From IMG/VR virus record IMGVR_UViG_2537561603_000004, positions 1 to 53,635 of that record: DNA of 53,635 bases. One strand, given 5' to 3'. Source of the stretch: a virus. Its lineage: Duplodnaviria > Heunggongvirae > Uroviricota > Caudoviricetes. Position 1 is the first letter of the stretch, and each line of letters starts with the position of its first letter. The notes beneath the pieces were generated by a model. The model saw only the letters and a program-made list of their open reading frames with translations, searched no databases and had not been told where the DNA came from. Shown here piece by piece: positions 9,026-38,828 of the stretch. A program made the translations under genes and the position numbers.

Positions 9026-9723
9026 AAAACATCGCCGCACAGATGATTAACTTTGACCGTGAGCAGATGCGTCGGATCGCCAACAACATGCCGGAACAGT
9101 ACGACGAAAAGCCGCAGGTACAGCAGGTAGCGCAGATAATCAACGGTGTATTCAGCCAGTTACTGGCAACTTTCCCGGCGAGCCTGGCTAATCGTGACCA
9201 GAACGAACTGAACGAAATCCGCCGCCAGTGGGTTCTGGCTTTCCGGGAAAACGGGATCACCACGATGGAGCAGGTGAGCGCCGGAATGCGTGTTGCCCGT
9301 CGGCAGAATAGACCATTTCTGCCATCACCCGGGCAGTTTGTTGCATGGTGCCGGGAAGAAGCATCCGTTACCGCCGGGCTGCCAAACGTCAGCGAGCTGG
9401 TTGATATGGTTTACGAGTATTGCCGGAAGCGTGGTCTGTATCCGGATGCAGAGTCTTATCCGTGGAAATCAAACGCGCACTACTGGCTGGTTACCAACCT
9501 GTATCAGAACATGCGGGCCAATGCGTTGACTGACGCGGAATTACGGCGCAAGGCTGCCGATGAACTGGCCTGTATGACCGCGCGAATTAACCGTGGTGAG
9601 GCTATACCTGAACCAGTAAAACAACTTCCTGTCATGGGCGGTAGGCCTCTAAATCGTGCACAGGCTCTGGCGAAGATCGCAGAAATCAAAGCTAAGTTCG
9701 GGCTGAAAGGAGCGATGAAATAG
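9022..9723 (+). CDS. P: Replication protein P (DnaB helicase loader)
   Basis: 233-aa translation near-identical to lambda P (MKNIAAQMINFDREQMRRIANNMPEQYDEKPQVQQ...). Confidence 0.95.
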   Translation: MKNIAAQMINFDREQMRRIANNMPEQYDEKPQVQQVAQIINGVFSQLLATFPASLANRDQNELNEIRRQWVLAFRENGITTMEQVSAGMRVARRQNRPFLPSPGQFVAWCREEASVTAGLPNVSELVDMVYEYCRKRGLYPDAESYPWKSNAHYWLVTNLYQNMRANALTDAELRRKAADELACMTARINRGEAIPEPVKQLPVMGGRPLNRAQALAKIAEIKAKFGLKGAMK

Positions 9724-9972
9724 AGCTAAAGTATTAGCTTAAAAATAAAGTATACCTAGCGAATATAATCTAGGACTAGTTGTAACGCCCGAAATGATTG
9801 ATTGCGTGAGCAACAAAATTTTTCTTCCATTGTTGTGAAATCATTTAGCCATAAAGTTTATGCAGAGATTTTATTTTATTTTTGAGTTGATTTTTTTGTA
9901 ACGAGCTGTATATTTCGCGCCTCTTGTCATACCAGTTATTTTTTTCATTATATTCATAACGTTGATTGAACT

Positions 9973-20911: not shown

Positions 20912-21125
20912 CGGGTCCTTTCCGTCGATCCAACAGGTTACGGGGCGGCGACCTCGCGGGTTTTCGCTATTTATGAAAATTTTCCGGTTTAAGGCGTTTC
21001 CGTTCTTCTTCGCCGTAACTTAATGTTTTTATTTAAAACACTCCCTGAAAAGAAAGGAAACGACAGGTGCTGAAAACGGGCTTTTTGGCCTCTGTCGTTT
21101 CCTTTCTCTGTTTTTGTCCGTGGAA
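20912..21125 (+). other. cos: Prophage cos site (cosQ-cosN-cosB); cosN at about 20943-20954
   Basis: Sequence matches the lambda cohesive-end region (gggcggcgacctcgcgggttttcgctatttatgaaaattttccggtttaaggcgtttccgttcttctt...) immediately upstream of nu1. Confidence 0.9.
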
Positions 21126-21131
21126 TGAACA

Positions 21132-21651
21132 ATGGAAGTCAACAAAAAGCAGCTGGCTGACATTTTCGGCGCGAGTATCCGTACTATTCAGAACTGGCAG
21201 GAGCAGGGAATGCCCGTTCTGCGAGGCGGTGGGAAGGGTAATGAGGTGCTTTATGACTCTGCCGACGTCATAAAATGGTATGCCGAAAGGGATGCTGAAA
21301 TTGAGAACGAAAAGCTGCGCCGGGAGGTTGAAGAACTGCGACAGGCCAGCGAGACAGATCTCCAGCCAGGGACTATTGAGTACGAACGCCATCGACTTAC
21401 GCGTGCGCAGGCCGACGCACAGGAGCTGAAAAATGCCAGAGACTCCGCTGAAGTGGTGGAAACCGCATTCTGTACTTTCGTGCTGTCGCGGATCGCAGGT
21501 GAAATTGCCAGTATTCTCGACGGGATCCCCCTGTCGGTGCAGCGGCGTTTTCCGGAACTGGAAAACCGACATGTTGATTTCCTGAAACGGGATATCATCA
21601 AAGCCATGAACAAAGCAGCCGCGCTGGATGAACTGATACCGGGGTTGCTGA

Positions 21652-21677
<26 letters not shown>
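21132..21677 (+). CDS. nu1: Terminase small subunit Nu1
   Basis: 181-aa translation near-identical to lambda Nu1. Confidence 0.95.
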
Positions 21678-25358
<3,681 letters not shown>

Positions 25359-27040: not shown

Positions 27041-27062
27041 GGCCGCCTGTGCGGCTTTTTTT
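27041..27062 (+). terminator. Hairpin plus T-run between D and E (possible attenuator)
   Basis: ggccgc-ctgt-gcggc followed by ttttttt. Confidence 0.35.
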
Positions 27063-27075
27063 ACGGGATTTTTTT

Positions 27076-27351
27076 ATGTCGATGTACACAACCGCCCAGC
27101 TGCTGGCGGCAAATGAGCAGAAATTTAAGTTTGATCCGCTGTTTCTGCGTCTCTTTTTCCGTGAGAGCTATCCCTTCACCACGGAGAAAGTCTATCTCTC
27201 ACAAATTCCGGGACTGGTAAACATGGCGCTGTACGTTTCGCCGATTGTTTCCGGTGAGGTTATCCGTTCCCGTGGCGGCTCCACCTCTGAATTTACGCCG
27301 GGATATGTCAAGCCGAAGCACTTAGCATGGCTTTCTGAGGCTTTCGTGTAG
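27076..27351 (+). pseudogene. E: Major capsid protein E, 5' portion (codons 1-81), interrupted by insertion at 27320/27321
   Basis: Translation MSMYTTAQLLAANEQKFKFDPLFL...TPGYVKPKH matches the lambda gpE N-terminus, then reads into unrelated sequence (LAWLSEAFV) and stops; the remainder of E resumes at 38043. Confidence 0.9.
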
Positions 27352-27448
27352 TTGCTGGTTTTTACACTTAATCTTTTGATAATAAAGAATAAGTCTATCT
27401 GGCGCTTTCACTGGATTTTCCTCGTTATCTGTGTGTTGCAATCATCTC

Positions 27449-27469
27449 TGTATTGCAGCTTGTATTGCT
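27449..27469 (+). repeat. Arm-type repeat, left copy (TGTATTGCAGCTTGTATTGCT)
   Basis: 21-bp sequence repeated in the same orientation at 37942-37962 (one mismatch), just inside each element end. Confidence 0.6.
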
Positions 27470-27483
27470 TTTTGGGGCTTAAA

Positions 27484-28719
27484 ATGGCTGGCGAGAACAA
27501 ACTGAGCGACAAAGCACTTAAAGGATATCTGGGGAAACCCAGAGAAAAGCAGATCACCATTGCTGATGGAAAGGGGCTTTCTATTCGTGTGAGTACCAAG
27601 GGGGCTGTGAGCTTTGTTTTCTTCTACAGGTTAGCAGGTGGCCGGGCTGCTCCGGTCTGGCTAACGTTGGGTAAATATCCTGATATGTCACTCAAACAGG
27701 CAAGGGAAAAGCGCGACGAGTGCCGTGGTTGGTTGGCTGACAAACGTGATCCGCGTATCCAGATTAAGATTCAGGCTGAAGAACGCTTAAAGCCGGTCAC
27801 AGTGGAGGATGCACTAAATTACTGGTATGAAAATTACTGTAAGGTGCGTCGTAAAACTCATGCTGTAACGCTTGGCAGATTTCGAAAGCATATTTTTCCC
27901 TATATCGGTCATTTGCCTGTAAATGACACTCACCTATATGAATGGCTGGACTGTTTTGACCGAATTAAACGTAATGCACCAGTTATGGCGGCGTATGTTT
28001 TTTCTGACACTAAATTAGCTCTTCGTTTTTGTCGGGTACGCCAGTACGCGACGTGTGATGCTTTAAAGGATTTGCGCATGAGTGATGTGGGGCAGATTGC
28101 AGGTAAGCGGGATCGGGTTCTGGATGAAGCCGAGCTGGGCCAGCTCTGGAAAGCAATTTTTGTCGAGCCTGATTTAAAACTAATGTCTGAATACACGCGA
28201 AAAATGTTTGTACTTTGTACAGTATTTGGATGTCGAATGAGTGAAGCCCGATTATCAGAATGGAGCGAATGGGATCTCGAAAGTTGGGTTTGGACTGTAC
28301 CAAAAGATCACTCAAAAACTGGTGTTGAAATCGTCAGACCAGTACCTGAAATTCTACGACAGTGGGTAACGGATGTTCACGAAGAGACAAAACATACTGG
28401 TTATGTGCTGGGAAGTCTGCGAATTAGAGAAAGCGTAAGCAAGATTGGGGGGAAAATCGGTAAACGTTTGGGCCATGAAAAACAATGGTCACTACACGAC
28501 CTTAGAAGAACGCTATCTACTCATCTAAGTGATCTCGGTGTTGAATTTTATGTAGTAGAACAACTGTTAGGCCATGCGCTACCTGGCGTGGCAGGTGTTT
28601 ACAACCGGAGTAAGTTTATGGCTAAAAAACTGGATGCTCTGGAACTCTGGACTACATATCTCAATAGCATCGCAGGTGCTGATTCAAAAGTGATAATCCT
28701 CAAACAAAAGGCTGGTTAA
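27484..28719 (+). CDS. Tyrosine integrase (P4-type, satellite-associated)
   Basis: 411-aa protein from the ATG at 27484; catalytic motifs HDLRRT and LLGHA...GVYNR; the N-terminal extension in the ORF track is unlikely to be coding. Confidence 0.85.
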   Translation: MAGENKLSDKALKGYLGKPREKQITIADGKGLSIRVSTKGAVSFVFFYRLAGGRAAPVWLTLGKYPDMSLKQAREKRDECRGWLADKRDPRIQIKIQAEERLKPVTVEDALNYWYENYCKVRRKTHAVTLGRFRKHIFPYIGHLPVNDTHLYEWLDCFDRIKRNAPVMAAYVFSDTKLALRFCRVRQYATCDALKDLRMSDVGQIAGKRDRVLDEAELGQLWKAIFVEPDLKLMSEYTRKMFVLCTVFGCRMSEARLSEWSEWDLESWVWTVPKDHSKTGVEIVRPVPEILRQWVTDVHEETKHTGYVLGSLRIRESVSKIGGKIGKRLGHEKQWSLHDLRRTLSTHLSDLGVEFYVVEQLLGHALPGVAGVYNRSKFMAKKLDALELWTTYLNSIAGADSKVIILKQKAG

Positions 28720-28720
28720 C

Positions 28721-28948
28721 ATGAAAAAAATGGCGATTGTTGATAAAAAGGGTCTGGAGTACATTCCTAACATCGATCGTATGATCCGTGAGAAAGAATG
28801 TCGGGAGCTAACCACTCTTGCGAACAGCACACGCTGGAAGCTGGAGAAGGAAGGGAAATTTCCTAAGCGGATCAAGATTGGCTCCACTGCTGTTGCATAT
28901 CGTCTTTCAGAAGTGCAGGCATGGATTCGAGGTGAGTGGGTAGTTTAA
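28721..28948 (+). CDS. AlpA-family transcriptional regulator/excisionase
   Basis: 75-aa protein with AlpA-like HTH (LANSTRWKLEKEGKFPKRIKIGSTAVAYRLSEVQAWI) directly after the integrase. Confidence 0.7.
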   Translation: MKKMAIVDKKGLEYIPNIDRMIREKECRELTTLANSTRWKLEKEGKFPKRIKIGSTAVAYRLSEVQAWIRGEWVV

Positions 28949-29017
28949 ATTATCTCAGAATAAAATATTATGAATTACTGATTTGAGAATTTGCACTCAA
29001 ATCAGTAATAACATTCT

Positions 29018-29554
29018 TTATAAGAGATTAAATCCAAATAAAGAGTAATCATATGCCGGGGTGCATTGCATCCCACTGAATATGCTGATATTTTTTTCTG
29101 TTTCTATCCTTTTTTCAATAAGTTGTTGTATATTTTTACAGTACAATTTGTGTGTGATGTTATTATCGTAAGCCTGATATAACAACGTCAATGTTGACGC
29201 TATGAAACATGCAGAAAGAAAATGAACTAGTACATGTGAACGTTTTTTGGTTGTCCATGATGCATTCGCTTGTGAAATATAAATCATTCTGAGAAGGATA
29301 ATGATGATAGACAGTAACAGACCACTCAATAAAATAAGCATTGGGTTTGCGTATTTTATTAATGGTTGAGAGCAAAAAACCATTATGGCTCCTGTGACTG
29401 CGTATGAGAAAAAGGAGTAATTAAACTTTTTACTTCTTCTCTCAAGTATTTTAATTTCATCTTGTGTGGGGGTTTTAGATGCCTCTAATATAAGTTTATT
29501 GAATGTTTCTATTATCTTGTTTTTTATGTTTGTGGCTATTTTTTTTAGATTCAT
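29018..29554 (-). CDS. Multi-pass membrane protein of unknown function (accessory cargo)
   Basis: 178-aa ORF with ~4 hydrophobic helices in a strongly AT-rich segment (about 28950-29870); own RBS (gggag). Confidence 0.5.
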   Translation of the reverse strand: MNLKKIATNIKNKIIETFNKLILEASKTPTQDEIKILERRSKKFNYSFFSYAVTGAIMVFCSQPLIKYANPMLILLSGLLLSIIIILLRMIYISQANASWTTKKRSHVLVHFLSACFIASTLTLLYQAYDNNITHKLYCKNIQQLIEKRIETEKNISIFSGMQCTPAYDYSLFGFNLL

Positions 29555-29904
29555 AGTATTCTAACTCCCTTAACTTATTTATTACTTTCTCTTTATGATA
29601 AGAGAGGGGAATGACTTGGTAAAGTGATTTGTAATTAATAATGATAATCCTTGCGATAAATATTTCTGCAAGTTATTTATCTGTTTGTTGCTATCTTGTT
29701 AAGCGTTGGGTGTGGTTTATGTTTGGAGCGACTTTATTTAATCGTGATTTTATGGATCTATATTTATATCCTGTAAGATAAGCGCATGTTAGTTCAGGAG
29801 TAGTGTCAGATAAAATTATTCGGAGTAGAACTACCTTTTCTGTTTATTGCCAGTATTTACATAGCAATGCGCCGTAGTTACTCACATCACGGCGCTGATA
29901 GTAA

Positions 29905-30207
29905 TTATTCAGATTCTTTGGCTTTACGCCGCTGGAGTTCTTCACGAGCGACGGCTACGAGTTGCCCGATTTCCTCCGCTGCCTTGATGCCGATTTGTTC
30001 GACCTTAGCTAAGGCATCCAGTGAAGACACGAGGGGATTTTCTCCGCTTCCTTCTGCCTGGCGGCGGGCGATCTCACCGCGCATGGCGGTTACTATGAAT
30101 CCGGCGTTGCTTTCGCCGTCCAGTTTTACGGATTCCATGCCCTCCATAACATCGTGGGGAACCCTGATCGTTGTCATTTGCGATTTTGCATTTTTGTATA
30201 CAGACAT
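29905..30207 (-). CDS. Ribbon-helix-helix (CopG/Arc-like) DNA-binding protein, putative repressor
   Basis: 100-aa ORF; N-terminal TTIRVPHDVMEGMESV pattern resembles an RHH beta-strand/helix; divergent from the rightward replication operon with operator-like repeats between. Confidence 0.45.
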   Translation of the reverse strand: MSVYKNAKSQMTTIRVPHDVMEGMESVKLDGESNAGFIVTAMRGEIARRQAEGSGENPLVSSLDALAKVEQIGIKAAEEIGQLVAVAREELQRRKAKESE

Positions 30208-30226
30208 AGTTAATCACCAATTTGTT

Positions 30227-30329
30227 ATGTGTATATCACTATACACAAAAGTGAGATATAAAAACACTTGCAATGTATATCACCACAATATAATGTATAT
30301 CTCACATCATGGTCGCTATGTATCTCACA
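30227..30329. promoter_or_regulatory. Divergent promoter region with repeated TGTAT(A)TC(A/T)CA operator-like motifs
   Basis: Direct repeats at 30227-30240, 30273-30284, 30293-30306 and 30318-30329, plus an inverted element (atatcac ... gtgagatat). Confidence 0.5.
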
Positions 30330-30415
30330 ATGATCGATTCATAAAAACGACGAAACCCGGCAGTGCGCGAACACTAACCGGGCTTCTAACCAAACCGTTA
30401 AACGAGGTAACGATT

Positions 30416-30781
30416 ATGGCTGGAACACAGCATACCCAAACTCACCCTAAATTTATATACACCTTTCTGGCACTACACCACGACCGCATGGCAGATGGAG
30501 CAACTACGGTACATGTTGCCGCTGACACGCTGGTTGATGCCCGCAAGATGGTTAAGGAGATGGGCTATACTGCGGCTTTCTGGAAAGGGCGTGAAGAAAA
30601 CACGCTGTTTATTCAGAAATGCGAAAACAATTTCATCTGGCGTTTTATCGCCCTGAGCACCGCACAACCACGCGTAATACACATCGAGGCCGCCAGCGAA
30701 CAGGAAGCCCGCCAGCAATTCCCAACTGGCTACGTGATGATATTCGCCGCCCGTATTCGTCAGGAGGTGTGCCATGAATGA
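30416..30781 (+). CDS. Hypothetical protein (first gene of rightward operon)
   Basis: 121-aa ORF from the ATG at 30416; the upstream part of the 304-aa track ORF spans the promoter and is rejected. Confidence 0.4.
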   Translation: MAGTQHTQTHPKFIYTFLALHHDRMADGATTVHVAADTLVDARKMVKEMGYTAAFWKGREENTLFIQKCENNFIWRFIALSTAQPRVIHIEAASEQEARQQFPTGYVMIFAARIRQEVCHE

Positions 30782-30998
30782 TCTTTATTTTAAAGTGCTG
30801 ACACATGCTGAAAACGCGCTCGTTTGTGGCAAAAATATGCGAGAAATCTTATCAACCTGGCTTGATGGGACAACAAATGCGGAACACGATGAACGGGATG
30901 CTAATTTAGCTGGAGCGTTAATTACGTTACTTGATCCTGTCATCAAAGAGCTGGATGAAGCTATAAAAATACACGACCAGAGCTATACCGGAGAATAA
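30774..30998 (+). CDS. Hypothetical protein
   Basis: 74-aa ORF with strong RBS (aggaggtg), overlapping the upstream gene stop. Confidence 0.4.
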   Translation: MNDLYFKVLTHAENALVCGKNMREILSTWLDGTTNAEHDERDANLAGALITLLDPVIKELDEAIKIHDQSYTGE

Positions 30999-31001
30999 AA
31001 A

Positions 31002-31289
31002 ATGAAAAATAAATTTTCTGGCTTTATTGCCAGCGGTCAAACTCATTCAAAAATCAGCCTTGGGGATATTTTCAAAGACAGCTATGGCTATCGGGTAAAG
31101 ATTATTTCGGTTGATGATCGTCGTGTCTCTTATTTGCGTGATGGTTATGATTTTGAATGTGTTATGCCGCGTCAGCAGTTCGAAAGAGATTTCATTCTGG
31201 TAAAAAATTGCAAGACAGATAATCAGAGGCGTGCCGCAGGCTATATCCGTAAAATTCGGGCAATGTTAGTTGCCGGAGGTAACAAATGA
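31002..31289 (+). CDS. Hypothetical protein
   Basis: 95-aa ORF overlapping the primase start. Confidence 0.4.
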   Translation: MKNKFSGFIASGQTHSKISLGDIFKDSYGYRVKIISVDDRRVSYLRDGYDFECVMPRQQFERDFILVKNCKTDNQRRAAGYIRKIRAMLVAGGNK

Positions 31290-33106
31290 AACGTGCTCCG
31301 AACTTAAAATACCAACCGCGCGACAAAATGACGGAAGTCATCATTTTTGCTGGCAGTGATGCCTGGAGCCATGCAAAAGAATGGAATGAATGGGCAGGTA
31401 AGCATATTGCAGCAGATGATACACCACCAGTCATTCTGGGTACGGAACAACTGGAAAACCTGGATGATATGCAAATTATCGATGAAGGCCGTCATTATGT
31501 GCGTGTTTATCGTGCCGGAAAGATTGCAGAGAAAAGTCTGACGAAGGTTGCGACATTACTTGCTATTGCAGGCGTAAAGGAAGCACGTTGTTACCGTAGC
31601 TTTGTTGATCGAGAGCCTGAAGACTGGACTCCGCGCCTTGTCGGCCTAAAAGCTGAAGCGGAGCATGGGGAAAGTCTGGTGATTGAACTGCCAGTTAAGA
31701 AGGCTGAGCGCAAAAATGACGAGCGTGCTTCATCTTTGGCGTTGAATCAGATGGGGGCCAGCCAGCGCGGTGAAGTTCTCCTTGCACATTACGGCGGCGA
31801 ACTGGCAATCAATGCCGACTCTGACACCGTTCATCATTACAACGGCGTTGTATGGGAGCCGGTTCAGGATAAAGAGTTACAGCGTGCTATGGCGCAGATT
31901 TTCATTGATGCGGAGATCAGCTATTCGCAGAACGCTATTAAATCGGCGGTAGATACCATGAAGTTAAGTTTGCCTGTAATGGGGAATACAGCCCGTAACC
32001 TGATTGGATTCAGTAACGGGGTATTTGATACCAGAACTGGTAACTTTCGGGAGCATAACAAAAACGACTGGTTGTTAATTGCCAGTGAATTACCTTTCAG
32101 CCCACCAGCAGAGGGGGAAACGCTGGCAACACATGCGCCGAATTTCTGGAAGTGGTTGCGCCGTTCGGTGGCTGAGAATGACCGCAAGGCAGATCGCGTA
32201 CTGGCGGCATTATTCATGGTGCTGGCGAACCGGTACGACTGGCAGTTATTCATTGAGGTAACAGGGCCGGGGGGAAGTGGTAAAAGTGTGATGGCGGAGA
32301 TTTGCACCATGCTGGCGGGTAAGGCTAATACAGTATCAGCAAGCATGAAGGCGCTGGAAGATGCAAGGGAACGTGCGTTAGTGGTTGGCTTTTCGCTGAT
32401 TATCATGCCGGATATGACCCGCTACGCTGGTGATGGGGCAGGGATTAAGGCCATTACAGGCGGTGACAAGGTGGCAATTGACCCGAAACACAAAGCCCCC
32501 TATTCAACGCGTATTCCGGCAGTAGTGCTGGCGGTTAACAATAACGCCATGTCATTCAGTGACCGCAGCGGGGGGATCTCACGTCGTCGGGTGATATTCA
32601 ATTTTTCGGAAGTTGTACCGGAGAACGAACGCGATTCGATGCTGGCGGAAAAAATAGAAGGTGAGCTGGCGGTAGTGATTCGCCATCTGCTTACACGGTT
32701 TGCTGATCAGGACGAAGCCAGACGCCTGTTATATGAGCAGCAGAAATCTGAAGAAGCACTGGCGATAAAGCGAGAGGGGGATTCGCTGGTGGACTTCTGC
32801 GGCTATCTCATGGCATCGGTAATGTGTGATGGCCTGTTAGTGGGTAATGCTGAAATTGTGCCATTCAGCCCACGCAGGTATCTCTATCATGCCTATCTGG
32901 CTTATATGAGGGCACATGGGTTTGGTAAACCTGTAACACTGACGCGCTTCGGTAAAGATATGCCGGGGGCAATGGCGGAATATGGCAGGGAGTATATGAA
33001 ACGGAAAACGAAGCACGGTTTGCGTTCAAACGTGACACTGACGGAGGAATCAGAAGACTGGATGCCATCATGTGTATCGGTCACTAATGACGATAGCAAA
33101 AATTAA
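31286..33106 (+). CDS. Primase-helicase (P4/PICI-type Pri-Rep, SF3 helicase C-terminal domain)
   Basis: 606-aa protein with Walker A (GPGGSGKS) and following Walker B-like region; RBS ggaggt; followed immediately by iterons. Confidence 0.75.
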   Translation: MKRAPNLKYQPRDKMTEVIIFAGSDAWSHAKEWNEWAGKHIAADDTPPVILGTEQLENLDDMQIIDEGRHYVRVYRAGKIAEKSLTKVATLLAIAGVKEARCYRSFVDREPEDWTPRLVGLKAEAEHGESLVIELPVKKAERKNDERASSLALNQMGASQRGEVLLAHYGGELAINADSDTVHHYNGVVWEPVQDKELQRAMAQIFIDAEISYSQNAIKSAVDTMKLSLPVMGNTARNLIGFSNGVFDTRTGNFREHNKNDWLLIASELPFSPPAEGETLATHAPNFWKWLRRSVAENDRKADRVLAALFMVLANRYDWQLFIEVTGPGGSGKSVMAEICTMLAGKANTVSASMKALEDARERALVVGFSLIIMPDMTRYAGDGAGIKAITGGDKVAIDPKHKAPYSTRIPAVVLAVNNNAMSFSDRSGGISRRRVIFNFSEVVPENERDSMLAEKIEGELAVVIRHLLTRFADQDEARRLLYEQQKSEEALAIKREGDSLVDFCGYLMASVMCDGLLVGNAEIVPFSPRRYLYHAYLAYMRAHGFGKPVTLTRFGKDMPGAMAEYGREYMKRKTKHGLRSNVTLTEESEDWMPSCVSVTNDDSKN

Positions 33107-33116
33107 ACTTATGGAA

Positions 33117-33345
33117 TAACTGTTCACCACTGTTCACCCTGTCATAAATATCTTTTATATCAGTATATTATAGGGTGAACAGTTATTTATGAACTGTTCA
33201 CCAAACTATTCACTGTTCACCTTTTTGATTGTTTATTGAGCTTCAAGGGTGAACAGTGGTGAACAGTTGGTGAATAGTTTTTGTGAAACTGTTCACCAAT
33301 TAACATTATGAATTAAAAGAGAAAATATCAAAAGGTGAACAGGTG
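33117..33345. repeat. Replication origin iterons (CTGTTCACC / GGTGAACAG, about 10 copies in both orientations)
   Basis: Dense array of 9-bp repeats immediately downstream of the primase-helicase gene. Confidence 0.8.
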
Positions 33346-33393
33346 AAGGGTTAAAACGCAAAAATTTTAATTTACTGCTGTGAGATAAAGCCT

Positions 33394-33639
33394 ATGACAG
33401 CGAAGCACACAAAAAAATCACAATCGCACGCCCTTGATTTGACGGAACACTGGTTAAGGGTGTCGATAAAAATCATCGACCGCAACGCCGGGGAAGGATA
33501 CGCGAAAGCACATCCCGAACTGATTAGCGCATTCATGACAACGGCGGCTGCAAACTTTGCCACTCTGACCGAACGGGAGATTGCTGAAGCGGAGGAAGTG
33601 ACAACAATCAATATTAAGTCCGGAGAGCAGGCAGCATGA
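33394..33639 (+). CDS. Hypothetical protein
   Basis: 81-aa ORF between ori and ssb. Confidence 0.35.
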   Translation: MTAKHTKKSQSHALDLTEHWLRVSIKIIDRNAGEGYAKAHPELISAFMTTAAANFATLTEREIAEAEEVTTINIKSGEQAA

Positions 33640-34085
33640 CGGCGCAAATATCAGTTTACGGGCGGTTGGTGGACGACCCGCAGACAAAACAGACCAGCAA
33701 GGGCACCCCCATGACGCTGGCGCGTATGGCGGTATCACTGCCCTGCAGTCAGTCGGATGACGGTCAGGCGACGATGTGGTTATCTGTCCTGGCGTTTGGC
33801 AGACAAGCCGACGCGCTGGCAAAGCATCACAAAGGCGAACTCCTGAGCGTGGCGGGTAACATGCAGATGAGCCAGTGGACTGGACAGAACGGCGAAACGC
33901 GGCAGGGCTGGCAGGTTATCGCAGACAGCGTAATCAGTGCGCGATCGGTGCGACCGGGCGGCAATAAAGGCCAACAGGGGCAGGCTACTGACGCACTGAA
34001 CAGAGCAAAACAACAGGCAGATCAGCAAGGAAGCCAGCCACCAGTGGGAGATAATGAGCAATGGGGAGATGATATCCCGTTTTAA
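33636..34085 (+). CDS. ssb: Single-stranded DNA-binding protein (SSB)
   Basis: 149-aa protein with OB-fold-like N-terminus (ISVYGRLVDDPQ...), Gly/Gln-rich linker and the SSB-signature acidic tail DDIPF. Confidence 0.7.
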   Translation: MTAQISVYGRLVDDPQTKQTSKGTPMTLARMAVSLPCSQSDDGQATMWLSVLAFGRQADALAKHHKGELLSVAGNMQMSQWTGQNGETRQGWQVIADSVISARSVRPGGNKGQQGQATDALNRAKQQADQQGSQPPVGDNEQWGDDIPF

Positions 34086-34302
34086 ATATTGCCAATAAAA
34101 AAAGGCCGGAAAAAATAAATTTTCCGGCATGCTACATAAATCCCGACCAAAGGGAGTGAAGATATTAACACTAATTTTCCGCACTGAAGTTGTCACCCCA
34201 AAACTTTATACAACATTGCACTCGGTTGCATGTATTCGCATGACAAATATCGGTGATAGCATATATCCACAATTATTTTTAATGAATGCAAAGAGGATGC
34301 GT

Positions 34303-35343
34303 ATGGTTGATTTATATTCGCCTACTCAGCTTGTACAGGTGGTTAATGCTGTAGATGTACAAAAACAACTAAATGCGTTGTTTACCAGTTTGTTTTTTAC
34401 TCGCTCGGTAATGTTTGAATCGCGCGATATTATTCTTGATACAATCGACGATCCAAATATCCCAATTGCAGCGTTTTGTTCTCCTATGGTGGGTAGTAAA
34501 GTTTCACGTGACGAAGGGTACGAATCAAAAACAATTCGTCCAGGCTATATGAAGCCGAAAAGCAGCATTGATCCAAATAAGTTAGCTGTGCGCCCTGCTG
34601 GTGTATCACCTGAGCAATACAATGCTTTTGGGGCGCGTAATATTAAAGTTAAACAGGCGATTGTAAATCAAGCTAAAGCTATTCGTGCACGTATTGAATG
34701 GCTTGCTGTTCAGGCAATCACAACGGGGAAAAATATCATTGAGGGCGATGGTATTGAACGTTATGAGCTGGACTGGAATATTAAACCACAAAATATCATC
34801 ACTCAGTCTGGCGGTGCTGAGTGGTCAGGTAAGGATAAAGAAACTTTTGATCCAAATGATGATATTGAGAGCTACGCAGAATTTAGTGAGGGCGTCACTA
34901 ATATTATCATTATGGGCGGTAATGTATGGAAGAAATACCGTTCATTCAGAGCGATAAAAGAGGCTCTGGATACCCGTCGTGGTTCTAATTCCGAACTGGA
35001 AACGGCCCTTAAAGACCTTGGTGATTCGGTGAGTTTTAAAGGGTATATGGGCGATGTTGCGATTGTTGTTTACAGCGGGCGTTATACCGACGAGGACGGA
35101 ACAGAAAAACATTTCCTTGATCCTGATTTGATGGTGCTTGGCAATACGGCTCTTCAGGGGATTGTCGCCTATGGCGGTATTCAGGATCCGGAGCTAATCC
35201 GAATGGGGCTGACTAAAGCCGAACTTGCACCGAAAAACTATATTGTGCCTGGTGATCCGGCTATTGAATATGTGCAGACACATTCAGCACCACAGCCAAT
35301 ACCGGCCCGCATCAATCGTTTTGTTACCGTTCGCATTGGCTAA
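34303..35343 (+). CDS. Element-encoded major capsid protein, divergent homologue of lambda gpE
   Basis: ~346-aa protein with clear but partial similarity to lambda gpE along its length (e.g. TRRGSNSELETA.KDLG...GDVAIVVYSG); ATG at 34303 with RBS aagagga. Confidence 0.8.
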   Translation: MVDLYSPTQLVQVVNAVDVQKQLNALFTSLFFTRSVMFESRDIILDTIDDPNIPIAAFCSPMVGSKVSRDEGYESKTIRPGYMKPKSSIDPNKLAVRPAGVSPEQYNAFGARNIKVKQAIVNQAKAIRARIEWLAVQAITTGKNIIEGDGIERYELDWNIKPQNIITQSGGAEWSGKDKETFDPNDDIESYAEFSEGVTNIIIMGGNVWKKYRSFRAIKEALDTRRGSNSELETALKDLGDSVSFKGYMGDVAIVVYSGRYTDEDGTEKHFLDPDLMVLGNTALQGIVAYGGIQDPELIRMGLTKAELAPKNYIVPGDPAIEYVQTHSAPQPIPARINRFVTVRIG

Positions 35344-35352
35344 GGGGGAGCA

Positions 35353-35694
35353 ATGGCTACTCATTACACTGAACTCATGGCTGGCACTGAAGCACTGGTG
35401 ACTACGCTGGGGATATTTTCAGCTAATAAAGGGGTAATTCCTGCATTTACGCCACTGATGCAGGAAGATGCAACAGGTGCACTGGTGGTATGGGATGGTT
35501 CGAGCGTAGGTAAAGCGGTTTATGTTTCCGCTGTACAAATCGACACCGCGAAAAAAACACAGGCTCAGGTCTATAAGACAGGTGTCTTAAATGTTGATGC
35601 TCTGAACTGGCCTGAGTCTGTTAAAGAACTGTCAGTAAAGGTTGCAGCGTTTGTTGGCTCAGGTATTTCTGTTCAGCCGCTGGCTCGTGTGTAA
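35353..35694 (+). CDS. Element-encoded decoration protein, divergent homologue of lambda gpD
   Basis: 113-aa protein alignable to lambda gpD (PAFTPLMQEDATGALVVWDGSSVGKAV... versus [27 protein letters not shown]...). Confidence 0.7.
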   Translation: MATHYTELMAGTEALVTTLGIFSANKGVIPAFTPLMQEDATGALVVWDGSSVGKAVYVSAVQIDTAKKTQAQVYKTGVLNVDALNWPESVKELSVKVAAFVGSGISVQPLARV

Positions 35695-35705
35695 AGGGGG
35701 ATACA

Positions 35706-36089
35706 ATGCAGAATGATTACAATGACCTTAAGCCAATTGCCGAAATGATGTACCCGAATCAAGCTGTAGAGGAATTAAAAGCTATCGCTGACAAAATGTG
35801 TTTAAGCGAGCGCCTTGTTGATATGAATCAGGTGATGGAAATTACAACCCTGAGTCGTCGTACACTGCTAAACCTTGAGGCTAGTGGAGAGTTCCCGGAG
35901 CGTGTGCAGGTTACGGAAGGGCGTAAGGCCTGGTATTTAAGTGAAGTGATCGACTGGATAAATAATATTCCTCGCGCTTCTGAATATTGCCGCGTACCTG
36001 TCCCAAAAAAGCCAGATGCGGCGCTATGCCTCAAGATTGAGCGTGTACGCCGCAATGCACGGGATGGTCGCTATAAGCTGATTGGTTGA
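35706..36089 (+). CDS. AlpA/MerR-like winged-HTH protein upstream of the element cos site
   Basis: 127-aa protein; segment MEITTLSRRTLLNLEASGEFPERVQVTEGRKAWYLSEVIDWI is AlpA-like. Confidence 0.5.
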   Translation: MQNDYNDLKPIAEMMYPNQAVEELKAIADKMCLSERLVDMNQVMEITTLSRRTLLNLEASGEFPERVQVTEGRKAWYLSEVIDWINNIPRASEYCRVPVPKKPDAALCLKIERVRRNARDGRYKLIG

Positions 36090-36109
36090 TGAAATTAGGG
36101 CCCGCTCTG

Positions 36110-36320
36110 GCTGGCGGGTCCTTTCCGGCGATCCAGAACGTTACGGGGCGTCAGGCGCGCAGTTTTTTGCTATTTGTGAAAATTTTCCTGTTTAAGGCGT
36201 TTCCGTTCTTCTTCGCCGTAACTTAATGTTTTTATTAAAAACACCCCCTAAAAAGAAAGGAAACGACAGGTGCTAAAAACAGGCTTTTTGGCCTCTGTCG
36301 TTTCCTTTCTCTGGTTTTGT
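36110..36320 (+). other. Second cos-like site (cosQ/cosB conserved, cosN region divergent)
   Basis: ~210 bp alignable to the prophage cos at 20912-21125; the cosN-equivalent reads gggcgtcaggcg instead of gggcggcgacct. Confidence 0.8.
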
Positions 36321-36687
36321 TGCCATCCGTCGCGGTCTATCACCAGAAAAAATCTTATCCCTGAGTTGAATCAGGCACTATTCAGAAGCGGCCAATAACG
36401 CGCCGCTAGCTTCACTTCATAGTTATGGCCTACTTCTGCGCCATTGCAATTGCTTTATGCGCCTTGATGGTGGAATATAGAGCAAGCAGTTTGCGAATAA
36501 CAAAGTTTCATATGTTTTTTGCTGTGTGGCTAGACAACTTTACAGCAGAGTTTTGTGTCAGTTCTTTATGTGTGCAAGCAAGCTTGAGGGGGAATTACTT
36601 CTGGCTGCATCTTTGCTTAAGAACAGCAATAATTTAATCATAAGGAAATGTATATAAGCCTGATTAAATTTCAGGCTTATTGAAATG

Positions 36688-37830
36688 TTAACTCCTTATT
36701 AGAGAGTAAATTCCATCCTCTTTAAGGAAGTCTATTACTTCAAAGAATGAGATAAAGAATTCCCAAGAACCAAAAGCATATGCATGAATTTCGTAAGGTG
36801 CAAAATGGAATCTAAATCCATCACTATTTATTGTGAACGAGTCTAAGTTACTATCCATGATACCCGTTGCAAACGTACTAATGTCGTCCTCACTTGGTTT
36901 TTCACCAGTTTTCTCCCAAAATTCACGAGCTGATTCAGAGATTATTTTTTGTTTTATCTTATTAATCGCTTCTTGCTCTTTCCCTTCGGTAAATACATCC
37001 CATAAACTAAATTTGTATGCGTAGTCATCCTTGGTTATTACGAAATTACTAGTTTCAAAATGACTGTTAGGGTGTGCTGCTCCCGCACCATACCAATGTA
37101 CGGAATGAAGGATGCTCATGACATTTTCGTTACAGTATGAGATGTTATAACTTTCATTATAGGAACTAGTGTAAGTGTGTTTATATTCTTCATCCCAATA
37201 TGGTGTTCCTGGCCATAGTGATGTGCGTTCAGAAAAAATATGTAAAGCCGCTTTTCCTGAAAAGTAATCACTAATGAGTTTTGCTGATTTCGGTAATGTA
37301 TGGCTTTCAATTCTTGGATATGCTATTTCAATTTCATGCCCTGGGATCTTGTTATATTCTTCCTTGAAAACCTCGCTGCTAAAGTTAAATGGCCCATAAG
37401 TGATACCTTGAGATATTTCAAGTTTTTGTTGCGATGCTGCTAATCTTAAAGATCTAGATAAAATGTCCCAACCATCATTTCTCTTAAAATCAATGAATTG
37501 GAGCTTGCTTGATATGTAGGCGGGTACTTCGCAATCATCAATAAGTAATGGTATCACGAACACATCATCTGGTTTGTAATACTTTAGTTTATCAATGGCG
37601 TCATTTATTTCGCGGCGAATATAACCATTTTTCTGAGTGCTCACTTTGCTAAGGATAAGGATTATCAAGTTTGAATTAGCGAAGTTTTTTTGGATTTCAT
37701 AATCCCAGTTTACGCCAGCGGGTATATCTTTTACATCCATCCAAGGGGAATATCCTCCACTTTTTAGCCTTTCATAGATTTCTTCAGTTATCGTTTCATC
37801 TTCTTTTGCATGAGCAAGAAAAATTTTCAT
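36688..37830 (-). CDS. TIR-domain protein with uncharacterised C-terminal domain (candidate anti-phage effector)
   Basis: 380-aa ORF; N-terminal ~120 aa fit a bacterial TIR fold (MKIFLAHAKEDE...LKSGGYSPWMDVKDIPAGVNWDYEI...SNLIILILSKVS...REINDAI); AT-rich, own RBS (aagga); between the element cos and its right end. Confidence 0.7.
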   Translation of the reverse strand: MKIFLAHAKEDETITEEIYERLKSGGYSPWMDVKDIPAGVNWDYEIQKNFANSNLIILILSKVSTQKNGYIRREINDAIDKLKYYKPDDVFVIPLLIDDCEVPAYISSKLQFIDFKRNDGWDILSRSLRLAASQQKLEISQGITYGPFNFSSEVFKEEYNKIPGHEIEIAYPRIESHTLPKSAKLISDYFSGKAALHIFSERTSLWPGTPYWDEEYKHTYTSSYNESYNISYCNENVMSILHSVHWYGAGAAHPNSHFETSNFVITKDDYAYKFSLWDVFTEGKEQEAINKIKQKIISESAREFWEKTGEKPSEDDISTFATGIMDSNLDSFTINSDGFRFHFAPYEIHAYAFGSWEFFISFFEVIDFLKEDGIYSLIRS

Positions 37831-37941
37831 TGAATATTCCTTTATAATTTAACTAATTAAGTGAAGGAGGCTTTACTTGGCTGTGTTAGAAAAAATTCGG
37901 TTTGTTTTTTGTACGATGCCAAGAAGGCTTTTCCCTAACCA

Positions 37942-37962
37942 TGTATTGCAGCATGTATTGCT
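37942..37962 (+). repeat. Arm-type repeat, right copy (TGTATTGCAGCATGTATTGCT)
   Basis: Same-orientation copy of the 27449-27469 repeat. Confidence 0.6.
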
Positions 37963-38042
37963 ACGTAATTCTGCACCCTCTCATTTATAAAATAAATCTC
38001 TGTTAAATCAAGTATCTTTTTTCTATTTGACTCATGTAACCC

Positions 38043-38828
38043 AAGCATGAAGTGAATCCGCAGATGACCCTGCGTCGCCTGCCGGATGAAGATCCGCAGA
38101 ATCTGGTGGACCCGGCTTACCGCCGCCGTCGCATCATCATGCAGAACATGCGTGACGAAGAGCTGGCCATTGCTCAGGTCGAAGAGATGCAGGCAGTTTC
38201 TGCCGTGCTTAAGGGCAAATACACCATGACCGGTGAAGCCTTCGATCCGGTTGAGGTGGATATGGGCCGCAGTGAGGAGAATAACATCACGCAGTCCGGC
38301 GGCACGGAGTGGAGCAAGCGTGACAAGTCCACGTATGACCCGACCGACGATATCGAAGCCTACGCGCTGAACGCCAGCGGTGTGGTGAATATCATCGTGT
38401 TCGATCCGAAAGGCTGGGCGCTGTTCCGTTCCTTCAAAGCCGTCAAGGAGAAGCTGGATACCCGTCGTGGCTCTAATTCCGAGCTGGAGACAGCGGTGAA
38501 AGACCTGGGTAAAGCGGTGTCCTATAAGGGGATGTATGGCGATGTGGCCATCGTCGTGTATTCCGGACAGTACGTGGAAAACGGCGTCAAAAAGAACTTC
38601 CTGCCGGACAACACGATGGTGCTGGGGAACACTCAGGCACGCGGTCTGCGCACCTATGGCTGCATTCAGGATGCGGACGCACAGCGCGAAGGCATTAACG
38701 CCTCTGCCCGTTACCCGAAAAACTGGGTGACCACCGGCGATCCGGCGCGTGAGTTCACCATGATTCAGTCAGCACCGCTGATGCTGCTGGCTGACCCTGA
38801 TGAGTTCGTGTCCGTACAACTGGCGTAA
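38043..38828 (+). pseudogene. E: Major capsid protein E, 3' portion (codons ~80-341), separated from 5' portion by the insertion
   Basis: Translation KHEVNPQMTLRRLPDEDPQNL...FVSVQLA matches lambda gpE from residue ~80 to the C-terminus, in frame with the core. Confidence 0.9.

What the first reader, a model, noticed from the sequence alone, without database searches (positions are those of the whole stretch)
36110..36320. Second cos-like site inside the element, with conserved terminase-binding flanks but a different cosN
About 210 bp at 36110-36320 align to the prophage cos region at 20912-21125, including the cosQ side and the cosB-like region (…tttccggtttaaggcgtttccgttcttcttcgccgtaactt…). 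The 12-nt cohesive-end position reads gggcgtcaggcg instead of gggcggcgacct. The element therefore appears built for packaging by the helper lambda-type terminase, as P4 and PICIs do with their helper cos. The altered cosN could change nicking efficiency or cohesive-end compatibility.
Basis: seen in the sequence. Interest (0 to 1): 0.8.

Follow-up and report, generated by a model that had tools for sequence, protein, structure and literature searches.

The report
Embedded satellite's lambda-type cos site
This is the DNA-packaging (cos) site of a small satellite element that sits inside its helper prophage's capsid gene. It is real and looks functional, but the element and its cos-like site are already published, and its different cohesive-end sequence is one allele of a common natural polymorphism that lambda-type terminase is known to tolerate.

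Summary
Window 36116-36320 aligns without gaps to the helper prophage cos at 20913-21117 (185/205, 90.2%). The cohesive-end 12-mer is GGGCGTCAGGCG instead of GGGCGGCGACCT.

Site 2 belongs to a 10.7-kb int-alpA-primase satellite that splits the helper's lambda-E capsid gene. This is the published helper-embedded PICI type "11capE" (NAR Genom Bioinform 2023), whose authors already noted a 258-bp, 90%-identical cos-like segment. I reproduced that figure (232/258) in their strain NRG857c, which carries the same variant cosN.

The block is exactly a minimal cos. All 20 differences avoid cosQ, the CG pairs flanking both nicks, bp 1-5, and R3, R2 and R1 (P about 4e-4). The satellite has no terS and no Rpp, so the helper's Nu1/A should package it directly.

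The variant cosN is ordinary. Published lambda genetics show that right-half changes are tolerated. I found at least 8 natural alleles, several at real phage cos sites whose terminases are about 99% identical to this helper's. Helper and satellite alleles differ in 9 of 10 pairs, so the hybrid ends are predicted to be incompatible (-9 against -19 kcal/mol).

The finding is already known in kind. The cosN detail is a minor, unremarked addition.

The parts
36116..36320 (+). Satellite cos block (site 2): a minimal complete lambda-type cos, from cosQ through R1
   Evidence: 185/205 identical to the helper cos, without gaps. In many E. coli genomes the match stops exactly at 36320, where the cargo differs.
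36116..36122 (+). cosQ (GGGTCCT), the packaging-termination signal
   Evidence: Identical to the helper and to lambda. Published as highly conserved.
36144..36159 (+). cosN: CG | GGGCGTCAGGCG | CG. The cohesive-end 12-mer is at 36146-36157.
   Evidence: Both nick-flanking CG pairs and bp 1-5 are kept. It differs from the helper at bp 6, 8, 9, 10 and 12. The published 11capE has the same allele.
36158..36194 (+). Spacer between cosN and R3 (the I2 region); its length is unchanged
   Evidence: No indels. Five substitutions, at bp 16, 18, 23, 31 and 44. The published requirement is a fixed cosN-to-R3 spacing.
36195..36210 (+). R3 (bp 50-65), the critical TerS (Nu1) binding site
   Evidence: AGGCGTTTCCGTTCTT, 16/16 identical to the helper.
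36211..36253 (+). I1 region (A/T-rich IHF bend site between R3 and R2)
   Evidence: Three substitutions against the helper, at bp 92, 100 and 105. The assignment is by position only; no exact IHF consensus match was found at either site.
36254..36269 (-). R2 (inverted R element)
   Evidence: AGAAAGGAAACGACAG, 16/16 identical to the helper.
36295..36310 (+). R1
   Evidence: CTGTCGTTTCCTTTCT, 16/16 identical to the helper.
20913..21117 (+). Helper prophage cos (site 1): canonical cosN at 20943-20954, R3 20992-21007, R2 21051-21066, R1 21092-21107
   Evidence: It is followed by Nu1 and A.
21132..23577 (+). Helper terminase genes: Nu1 (TerS, 21132-21677) and A (TerL, 21652-23577)
   Evidence: ORFs of 181 and 641 aa. 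Annotated as DNA-packaging protein and terminase large subunit in identical contexts.
27318..38044 (+). The satellite (helper-embedded PICI, 11capE type), about 10.7 kb, splitting the helper's lambda-E capsid gene at codons K-P-K-H
   Evidence: The E N-terminal fragment ends at about 27321 and the E C-terminal fragment resumes at about 38040. The gene set is int, alpA, primase, SSB, capsid and decoration. It is 97-99% identical to the NRG857c composite outside the cargo.
27484..28948 (+). Satellite integrase (27484-28719) and small AlpA (28721-28948)
   Evidence: phrog_1 integrase and phrog_2790 excisionase/regulator; annotation.
31286..33106 (+). Satellite D5-type primase/helicase (intact here)
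   Evidence: Pfam D5_N, DUF5906 and Pox_D5. It is a pseudogene in Rb-23, AR_0013 and IAI39.
34303..35694 (+). Satellite's own E-family major capsid gene (34303-35343) and D-family decoration gene (35353-35694)
   Evidence: Pfam Phage_cap_E 2e-41 and HDPD 5e-15. About 48% and 37% identical to the helper's E and D.
35706..36089 (+). 127-aa AlpA-family wHTH protein (HTH127), conserved immediately upstream of cos in all relatives. It is not an Rpp.
   Evidence: Pfam Phage_AlpA. phrog_2790 over its full length, 3e-49. The only PDB match is AlpA 8c3t, with none to RppC. Synteny holds in about 80 loci.
36688..37830 (-). Cargo gene in the variable slot between cos and attR: a TIR + DUF3298 protein (candidate anti-phage defence)
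   Evidence: Pfam TIR_2 3e-21 and DUF3298. PADLOC TIR-family models at 2e-17. Relatives have HEPN/DUF262, terS-like genes or other cargo in this slot.

Best explanation
Site 2 is the satellite's own packaging site, a complete lambda-type cos. After the satellite excises from the helper's capsid gene and replicates into concatemers, the helper's small terminase subunit (Nu1) binds the satellite's R3, R2 and R1. These are identical to the helper's own R elements, with IHF expected to bend I1. Nu1 thereby positions the helper's large subunit (gpA) to make staggered nicks 12 bp apart at the satellite's cosN. cosQ allows termination at a downstream cos. With a 10.7-kb unit, four units (42.9 kb) would fill a lambda-size head, as reported for EcCICFT073 multimers. 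The different 12-mer is a naturally occurring cosN allele. Its changes lie almost entirely in the half that lambda terminase reads loosely, so cutting should be normal. The satellite's ends match each other but not the helper's.

Shown: the anatomy, the pattern of conservation, and the distribution of alleles. Inferred: binding, cutting and packaging.
For: (1) The block runs exactly from cosQ to R1, and all 20 differences avoid the 64 positions that published genetics define as functional: cosQ, both CG nick flanks, bp 1-5, and R3, R2 and R1. P is about 4e-4 (rules).
(2) There are no indels, so the critical cosN-to-R3 spacing is kept.
(3) The satellite has no terS and no Rpp, so it depends on the helper's Nu1, whose binding sites it copies.
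(4) The cos sits at the same place, just after the 127-aa AlpA-like gene, in about 80 relatives whose flanking cargo varies.
(5) Published data: lambda TerL nicks right-half cosN variants efficiently, G2C is harmful while C11G is not, and yields are equal on lambda and N15 cosN.
(6) The same allele occurs at 3-4 real phage cos sites followed by Nu1 (2 aa differences) and gpA (7 conservative differences out of 641). Other alleles, such as GGGCGGAAGGCG, occur in at least 55 phage contexts whose terminases are about 99% identical to this helper's, and in the named phages YDC107_1 and PhiR46_1.
(7) The published sibling 11capE has the same allele beside a canonical helper cos. Its authors also presume cos packaging by the helper and showed that the satellite excises and the composite replicates after induction.
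Against: No packaging has been demonstrated. The authors of 11capE could not detect plaque-forming particles from the induced NRG857c composite. The change at bp 6 (G to T) lies in the half of the cohesive end reported to be under selection, although T6 also occurs at phage cos sites. No exact IHF consensus was found in I1 at either site. Several relatives have a primase pseudogene, so part of the family is decaying; the copy in this window is intact.
Confidence: 0.78

Rival explanations
1. The cosN difference is an adaptation. On this view the satellite keeps private cohesive ends that cannot anneal to the helper's. Chimeric chromosomes cut at the satellite cos and at the next helper cos in an unexcised composite (about 38-44 kb apart, a packageable length) then cannot circularise, and helper and satellite DNA cannot join end to end. 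This rival concerns why cosN differs. It is compatible with the site being a working cos.
For: Helper and satellite alleles differ in 9 of 10 pairs examined. All 28 satellites with helper-type cosB carry the variant allele and none carries the canonical one, while cosN/cosB recombinants do exist in the other direction. The variant is common in satellites (about 46 of 80) and rare at phage cos sites (3-4 against at least 60 canonical in a truncated sample). Hybrid ends are predicted at -9 against -19 kcal/mol.
Against: Random pairing of the two allele pools already predicts roughly three quarters mismatched pairs. The association is largely explained by lineage, since there are two upstream lineages that each mostly keep one cassette. 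Canonical cosN does occur in satellites with X-type and Y-type cosB. The chimeric chromosome wastes a capsid whether or not it circularises, so no clear benefit to the satellite can be stated. Right-half cosN is published as being free of selection.
Confidence: 0.1
2. Site 2 is a non-functional relic: a leftover of recombination with the helper or of a tandem prophage, carried along passively.
For: It is 90% identical to the helper cos in the same replicon and the same orientation. No particles have been demonstrated. Some relatives are decaying.
Against: No phage remnants flank it here: there is no Nu1 and there are no lysis genes. The boundaries coincide with the functional limits of cos. 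All differences avoid the functional positions (P about 4e-4). Position and integrity are conserved in about 80 relatives while the neighbouring cargo turns over.
Confidence: 0.05
3. Site 2 is a terminase decoy. It binds the helper's Nu1 at perfect R elements but is not cut, because cosN is altered. It would titrate terminase and interfere with the helper instead of serving packaging.
For: R elements are perfect and cosN is changed at 5 of 12 positions. Satellites commonly interfere with helper packaging.
Against: The positions known to matter for nicking are kept: the CG flanks, bp 1-5 and the spacing. The same allele sits at phage cos sites served by an almost identical terminase. cosQ, which is needed only for termination, is also conserved. 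The satellite has no other cos.
Confidence: 0.03
4. Packaging is redirected by a satellite protein, as with Rpp in EcCICFT073. The candidate is the conserved 127-aa AlpA-like protein encoded just upstream. It might recognise the diverged patch at bp 6-23, or occlude the helper's version of that patch.
For: The gene is immediately upstream of cos in every relative. It is a winged-HTH protein of the broad fold class that includes TerS and Rpp DNA-binding domains. Differences between the two sites cluster at bp 6-23.
Against: By sequence it is a full-length member of the excisionase/regulator family, phrog_2790, the same family as the satellite's small AlpA. It shows no similarity to RppC or Nu1. 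Its sequence classes do not track the cosN allele or the cosB type strictly. Phage-context copies of the allele have a helper-type bp 13-44.
Confidence: 0.04

Closest known systems
11capE, the founding helper-embedded PICI (HE-PICI) of E. coli NRG857c, in helper prophage 50icd (Tommasini, Mageeney & Williams, NAR Genom Bioinform 2023, PMC10111431)
   Same: It uses the same integration site in the lambda-E homologue and has the same gene order. The composite is 97-99% identical outside the cargo. The cos position is the same, and so is the variant cosN (GGGCGTCAGGCG) beside a canonical helper cos. Their '258 bp, 90%' is reproduced as 232/258.
   Different: The cargo after cos differs: a TIR/DUF3298 gene here, against a Nu1 remnant plus HEPN and DUF262 genes there. 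In 11capE the shared block runs on into that Nu1 remnant, whereas here it stops at R1. The paper does not analyse cosN or the R elements.
EcCICFT073 PICI cos1 with Rpp (Fillol-Salom 2018 and 2019; Murialdo & Feiss 2022)
   Same: Both are E. coli satellites of lambda-type helpers with a cos that has lambda-like cosQ and cosN. Both lack terS and depend on the helper's TerS and TerL.
   Different: The pattern of conservation is reversed. EcCICFT073 keeps the helper's cosN, replaces cosB with an unrelated sequence read by an Rpp-TerS heterodimer, and has rpp directly after cos. This satellite keeps the helper's cosB exactly, has no Rpp, and differs in cosN instead.
P4 (helper P2) and SaPIbov5 (cos-type staphylococcal helpers)
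   Same: These satellites carry the helper's cos, so the unmodified helper terminase packages them.
   Different: They belong to unrelated element families with different cos types. Those satellites also redirect capsid size. Here any role of the satellite's own E-like and D-like genes is unknown.
Natural cosN variation among lambda-like phages (N15 and phiD326: bp 9 and 12; Gifsy-1: bp 8, 9 and 11; Feiss et al. 2015, PMC4669245; Vahanian et al. 2017, not readable here)
   Same: [quoted passage not shown] The terminase is not allele-specific.
   Different: There are five differences from lambda instead of two or three, and they include bp 6. This exact 12-mer was not found in the searchable literature or in deposited phage genomes.

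Membership tests
Lambda-type cos site (as defined genetically by the Feiss and Becker laboratories) | 7-bp cosQ upstream of cosN | tested here: met
   GGGTCCT at 36116-36122, identical to the helper and to lambda.
Lambda-type cos site (as defined genetically by the Feiss and Becker laboratories) | cosN with conserved 5'-CG-3' flanking both nick positions, 12 bp apart | tested here: met
   CG|GGGCGTCAGGCG|CG at 36144-36159.
Lambda-type cos site (as defined genetically by the Feiss and Becker laboratories) | [quoted passage not shown] | tested here: inconclusive
   bp 1-5 (GGGCG) are kept, but bp 6 is T instead of G. T6 also occurs at phage cos sites, so it is probably tolerated.
Lambda-type cos site (as defined genetically by the Feiss and Becker laboratories) | cosB architecture R3-I1-R2(inverted)-R1, with R3 at bp 50-65 at fixed spacing from cosN | tested here: met
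   R3 is at 36195-36210, R2 at 36254-36269 (inverted) and R1 at 36295-36310. Each is 16/16 identical to the helper, with no indels.
Lambda-type cos site (as defined genetically by the Feiss and Becker laboratories) | Bound and nicked by terminase, giving 12-nt 5' cohesive ends | not testable with these tools
   This needs in vitro cleavage or sequencing of particle DNA ends.
Helper-embedded PICI (HE-PICI), capsid-E site type | [quoted passage not shown] | tested here: met
   The helper's E gene is split at K-P-K-H, with junctions at about 27318 and 38044. The satellite's core genes are on the same strand.
Helper-embedded PICI (HE-PICI), capsid-E site type | PICI core: int, alpA and primase, unidirectional, 10-20 kb | tested here: met
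   int 27484-28719, alpA 28721-28948, primase 31286-33106; total 10.7 kb.
Helper-embedded PICI (HE-PICI), capsid-E site type | Close relationship to the founding element 11capE | tested here: met
   97-99% nucleotide identity to the NRG857c composite outside the cargo.
Helper-embedded PICI (HE-PICI), capsid-E site type | Excision and transfer upon helper induction | not testable with these tools
   Excision was shown for 11capE by its authors; no particles were detected.
Rpp-dependent PICI cos (EcCICFT073 type) | cosB unrelated to the helper's, with no helper R elements | tested here: not met
   All three helper R elements are present and identical.
Rpp-dependent PICI cos (EcCICFT073 type) | rpp gene (135-154 aa, TerS-like DNA-binding domain) directly downstream of cos | tested here: not met
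   Downstream is a TIR gene on the opposite strand. No satellite protein matches RppC (6hlk) or any Rpp-like family.
Satellite with its own small terminase subunit (as in pac-type SaPIs; also seen in relatives of this element) | terS homologue encoded by the satellite | tested here: not met
   None is present in this window. Relatives do carry one: a 183-aa TerS whose residues 1-98 are nearly identical to lambda Nu1, or a 175-aa distant TerS beside an X-type cosB.

The most novel reading that the evidence does not exclude
The satellite lineage actively keeps cohesive ends, and the adjoining bp 13-23 patch, different from those of whichever helper it is embedded in. This would act as an isolating device. 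Chromosomes cut at one satellite cos and one helper cos could not circularise, and the two cos copies would resist terminase-mediated or homologous exchange. Alternatively the patch could let a satellite factor, such as the adjacent AlpA-like protein, tell the two sites apart. That would be discrimination at cosN, the mirror image of the Rpp mechanism, which discriminates at cosB.
Probability: 0.07. Interest if true: 0.6.

Novelty: already known. Interest (0 to 1): 0.25.

Why it matters
The practical value is modest. First, it identifies this window as a sibling of the published 61icd/11capE composite with different cargo. Second, it shows that this subtype of embedded satellite uses the simplest hijacking route, an exact copy of the helper's TerS-binding sites with no Rpp and no terS of its own. 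That contrasts with the model E. coli PICI. Third, it documents something the publication did not remark on: satellite and helper in one replicon carry cohesive ends that differ at 5 of 12 positions. This offers a natural system for testing how much cohesive-end mismatch lambda-type DNA can tolerate, since published tests stop at 2 of 12. The survey also shows that cosN in E. coli lambda-type prophages and satellites is a multi-allele polymorphism served by one terminase. That supports the published view that the right half of cosN is functionally relaxed.

Tried and rejected
- **Rpp.** The 127-aa HTH protein next to cos matched only AlpA (8c3t) in the PDB and phrog_2790, not RppC. The Nu1-like genes downstream of cos in relatives are full-length TerS homologues, not Rpp.
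- **Variant allele as satellite-only.** This was my first impression from a 21-mer search. It was rejected once a flank-free pattern found 3-4 phage-context copies.
- **"Canonical cosN never occurs with non-X cosB."** This was rejected for Y-type cosB, where 2 cases exist. It still holds for helper-type cosB (0 of 28), but it is confounded by lineage.
- **Allele-specific terminase.** This was rejected. The gpA of a variant-cosN phage differs from this helper's by 7 conservative substitutions, and terminases across five alleles are about 99% identical.
- **Known RNA in the region.** Rfam gave only sub-threshold hits to miRNA models, caused by the R2/R1 inverted repeat.
- **Promoter and terminator scan of 35300-38100.** The counts were no higher than in shuffled sequence.
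- **A first regex for extracting cos blocks** failed on most loci because cosB types differ. I redid the extraction by position.
- **Vahanian et al. 2017**, the natural history of cosN, could not be read.
- **No structure prediction was run.** A winged-HTH fold would not discriminate between AlpA, Xis, TerS and Rpp.

Full report
**Observation.** The two regions were read and aligned. An ungapped comparison puts window 36116-36320 against 20913-21117: 205 bp, 185 identical (90.2%), no indels. Site 1 is a textbook lambda cos. It has GGGTCCT (cosQ), the lambda cohesive-end sequence GGGCGGCGACCT at 20943-20954, R3, an A/T-rich I1 region, inverted R2 and R1, followed by Nu1 at 21132 and A at 21652. 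Site 2 has GGGCGTCAGGCG at 36146-36157, which differs at bp 6, 8, 9, 10 and 12. Of the 20 differences, 14 lie in the first 74 bp (cosQ-cosN-I2) and 6 in the 131 bp of cosB. No other canonical cosN exists in the window.

**What surrounds it.** The window is a lambdoid prophage: int at 1-1143, Nu1, A, portal, protease and D, then tail genes H and J. Its major capsid gene, nearly identical to lambda E, is split at codons K-P-K-H by a 10.7-kb insertion from about 27318 to 38044. The insertion encodes an integrase and a small AlpA. It then carries an Icd-like protein, a DUF4222 protein, a D5-type primase and an SSB. Its late end holds its own E-family capsid protein and D-family decoration protein, and a 127-aa AlpA-family winged-HTH protein. 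After that come site 2 and a TIR/DUF3298 gene on the opposite strand. Identical contexts occur in several complete E. coli genomes. Only 36 of 5426 genomes hold the full site-2 context, while 3185 match the part shared with ordinary lambda-type cos sites.

**It is a published element type.** Tommasini, Mageeney and Williams described "helper-embedded satellites" (HE-PICIs). [quoted passage not shown] I located that element. Its cos-like site carries the same variant 12-mer, its helper cos is canonical, and the two share 232/258 positions (89.9%), which reproduces the published figure. The window is 97-99% identical to the NRG857c composite. The match ends exactly at 36320 and resumes at attR, so only the cargo differs: TIR here, against a Nu1 remnant plus HEPN and DUF262 genes there. 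The paper does not discuss cosN or the R elements.

**Does the site look functional?** Published lambda genetics define what matters. [quoted passage not shown] The right half of cosN (bp 7-12) is free to vary, because TerS bound at cosB anchors TerL for bottom-strand nicking. G2C is harmful but the symmetric C11G is not. N15 and phiD326 differ from lambda at bp 9 and 12, and Gifsy-1 at bp 8, 9 and 11. Lambda terminase gives equal yields on lambda and N15 cosN. Site 2 keeps cosQ, both CG flanks, bp 1-5, the spacing, and R3, R2 and R1 at 16/16 each. All 20 differences avoid these 64 positions, with P about 4e-4. The block begins at cosQ and ends just after R1, so it is a minimal cos cassette. 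The only departure from the rules is T at bp 6.

**No redirecting factor.** In the model PICI EcCICFT073, cosQ and cosN match the helper, cosB is replaced, and an Rpp-TerS heterodimer reads the new cosB. The rpp gene lies directly after cos. Here the pattern is reversed. The 127-aa protein next to cos matches AlpA (8c3t) and is a full-length member of the excisionase/regulator family phrog_2790, not RppC. No terS is present. This satellite should therefore be recognised directly by the helper's Nu1.

**The family.** Eighty relatives were collected through the 127-aa protein, independently of cosN. All have cos at the same place, but the cassette is modular.
- cosB is either helper-type (28 loci, all with the variant cosN) or one of two types found only in satellites: Y-type, and X-type, which is followed by a 175-aa TerS homologue.
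- About half of the helper-type members also carry a 183-aa TerS whose first 98 residues are nearly identical to lambda Nu1.
- cosN is polymorphic: GGGCGTCAGGCG (46), GGGCGGCGACCT (about 31) and several rarer alleles.
- Clustering on the upstream 1.5 kb shows two lineages, with cassettes exchanged between them.

**Is the allele special?** An exact-pattern scan found it on 53 viral contigs. Nearly all are satellites, but 3-4 are real phage cos sites with diverse upstream sequence. These are followed by Nu1 (2 aa differences from this helper), gpA (7 conservative differences out of 641) and portal. A scan for any allele with bp 12 not T in a lambda-type context found several more in phage contexts: GGGCGGAAGGCG in at least 55, GGGCGGCAGGCG (one base from this satellite's allele) in 4, and GGGCGTCAGACG in 1. 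Their terminases are about 99% identical to this helper's. The named phages YDC107_1 and PhiR46_1 carry GGGCGGAAGGCG, while no deposited phage carries the satellite's exact allele. Across all eight alleles seen, bp 1-5, C11 and both CG flanks are invariant. The "different cosN" is therefore one allele of a common natural polymorphism served by a single enzyme. It is enriched in satellites but not confined to them.

**Helper/satellite pairs.** The helper is canonical and the satellite variant in this window, in four other complete genomes and in NRG857c. On three viral contigs the helper has GGGCGGAAGGCG and the satellite has the variant or the canonical allele. One further contig probably has canonical in both, but with different cosB. 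Nine of ten pairs differ, which is close to what random pairing of the two allele pools predicts. Matching the helper's cosN is clearly not required. Predicted duplex energies are about -19 kcal/mol for matched ends and -9 for hybrid ends. A chromosome cut at one cos of each type would therefore cyclise poorly; a published 2 of 12 mismatch already costs about 4-fold.

**Length arithmetic (inference).** The two cos sites are 15.2 kb apart, too short for termination in a lambda-size head. The unexcised composite exceeds lambda's packaging limit, as the authors also note. The path from the satellite cos round to the next helper cos is roughly 38-44 kb. The exact figure depends on the prophage's right end, which lies beyond the window. 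Four satellite units make 42.9 kb.

**Verdict.** The feature is real and is best read as a working satellite cos used by the unmodified helper terminase. It is already described for this element family. The cosN difference is true but ordinary. An adaptive role for private cohesive ends cannot be excluded, but the data do not require it. Neither Rfam nor the promoter and terminator scans add anything.

Noticed in passing
window 27049-27321 and 38040-38828: The helper's lambda-E major capsid gene is split by the satellite, which carries its own E-like (about 48% identical) and D-like (about 37% identical) genes. Excision would restore E. This is known for HE-PICIs, but whether the satellite's capsid proteins build particles is untested.
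   Followed up: partly
window 36321-38040 (TIR/DUF3298 gene at 36688-37830, minus strand): The slot between cos and attR holds variable cargo. It contains a TIR-domain protein here (PADLOC TIR models, 2e-17) and HEPN plus DUF262 genes in NRG857c. Other relatives carry terS-like genes or unrelated ORFs there. It looks like a defence-gene hotspot. Sequence identity with relatives ends exactly at 36320.
   Followed up: partly
L009, L019, L020, L112, L128 (about +192 bp from cosN): Some relatives carry, directly after a helper-type cos, a 183-aa TerS. Its residues 1-98 are nearly identical to lambda Nu1 (the DNA-binding and dimerisation part), and its C-terminal half (the TerL-binding part) is diverged. 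It is a natural chimera that could pair lambda cosB recognition with a different partner.
   Followed up: partly
L010, L016, L113 and about 40 other viral contigs: Two cosB types were found only in satellites. X-type contains GGTGGTGGTTTTG and is followed by a 175-aa TerS homologue 36% identical to Nu1. Y-type contains TGCGATTTGCCGTTTC and has R-like repeats. No phage with either type was found by exact-pattern scans.
   Followed up: partly
L294-L352 and others; phages CP025712.1 (YDC107_1) and PV340565.1 (PhiR46_1): The cohesive-end allele GGGCGGAAGGCG (5 of 12 positions different from lambda) is common at real lambda-type phage cos sites, with at least 55 viral contigs. Their terminases are about 99% identical to those found with the canonical allele.
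   Followed up: yes
L135, L182, L196, L210: Some viral contigs carry two canonical cosN sequences in inverted orientation about 750 bp apart, with no Nu1, gpA or the 127-aa HTH gene nearby. They may be PICIs of the EcCICFT073 type, which has two cos sites.
   Followed up: no
L255 (Rb-23), L256 (AR_0013), L257 (IAI39): The satellite's primase is a pseudogene in three relatives (a frameshift or an internal stop). In IAI39 an IS3 element truncates the integrase and the helper's left arm is missing. Part of the family is decaying in place. The primase in this window is intact.
   Followed up: partly
window 35706-36089 and 28721-28948: The satellite has two AlpA-family paralogs in the same PHROG: a 75-aa one next to int, and a 127-aa one with N- and C-terminal extensions that is always immediately upstream of cos. 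The role of the second is unknown.
   Followed up: partly
window 9973-13881: A 1302-aa ORF lies in the helper's early/nin region, where the window does not match the NRG857c composite (the gap in the match runs from 9713 to 13914). It was not analysed.
   Followed up: no
window 19079-19420 (minus strand) and 19799-20179: Just upstream of the helper cos there are ORFs that correspond, in near-identical prophages, to the serum-survival lipoprotein Iss and a TonB-family protein. These are morons between the lysis genes and cos.
   Followed up: no
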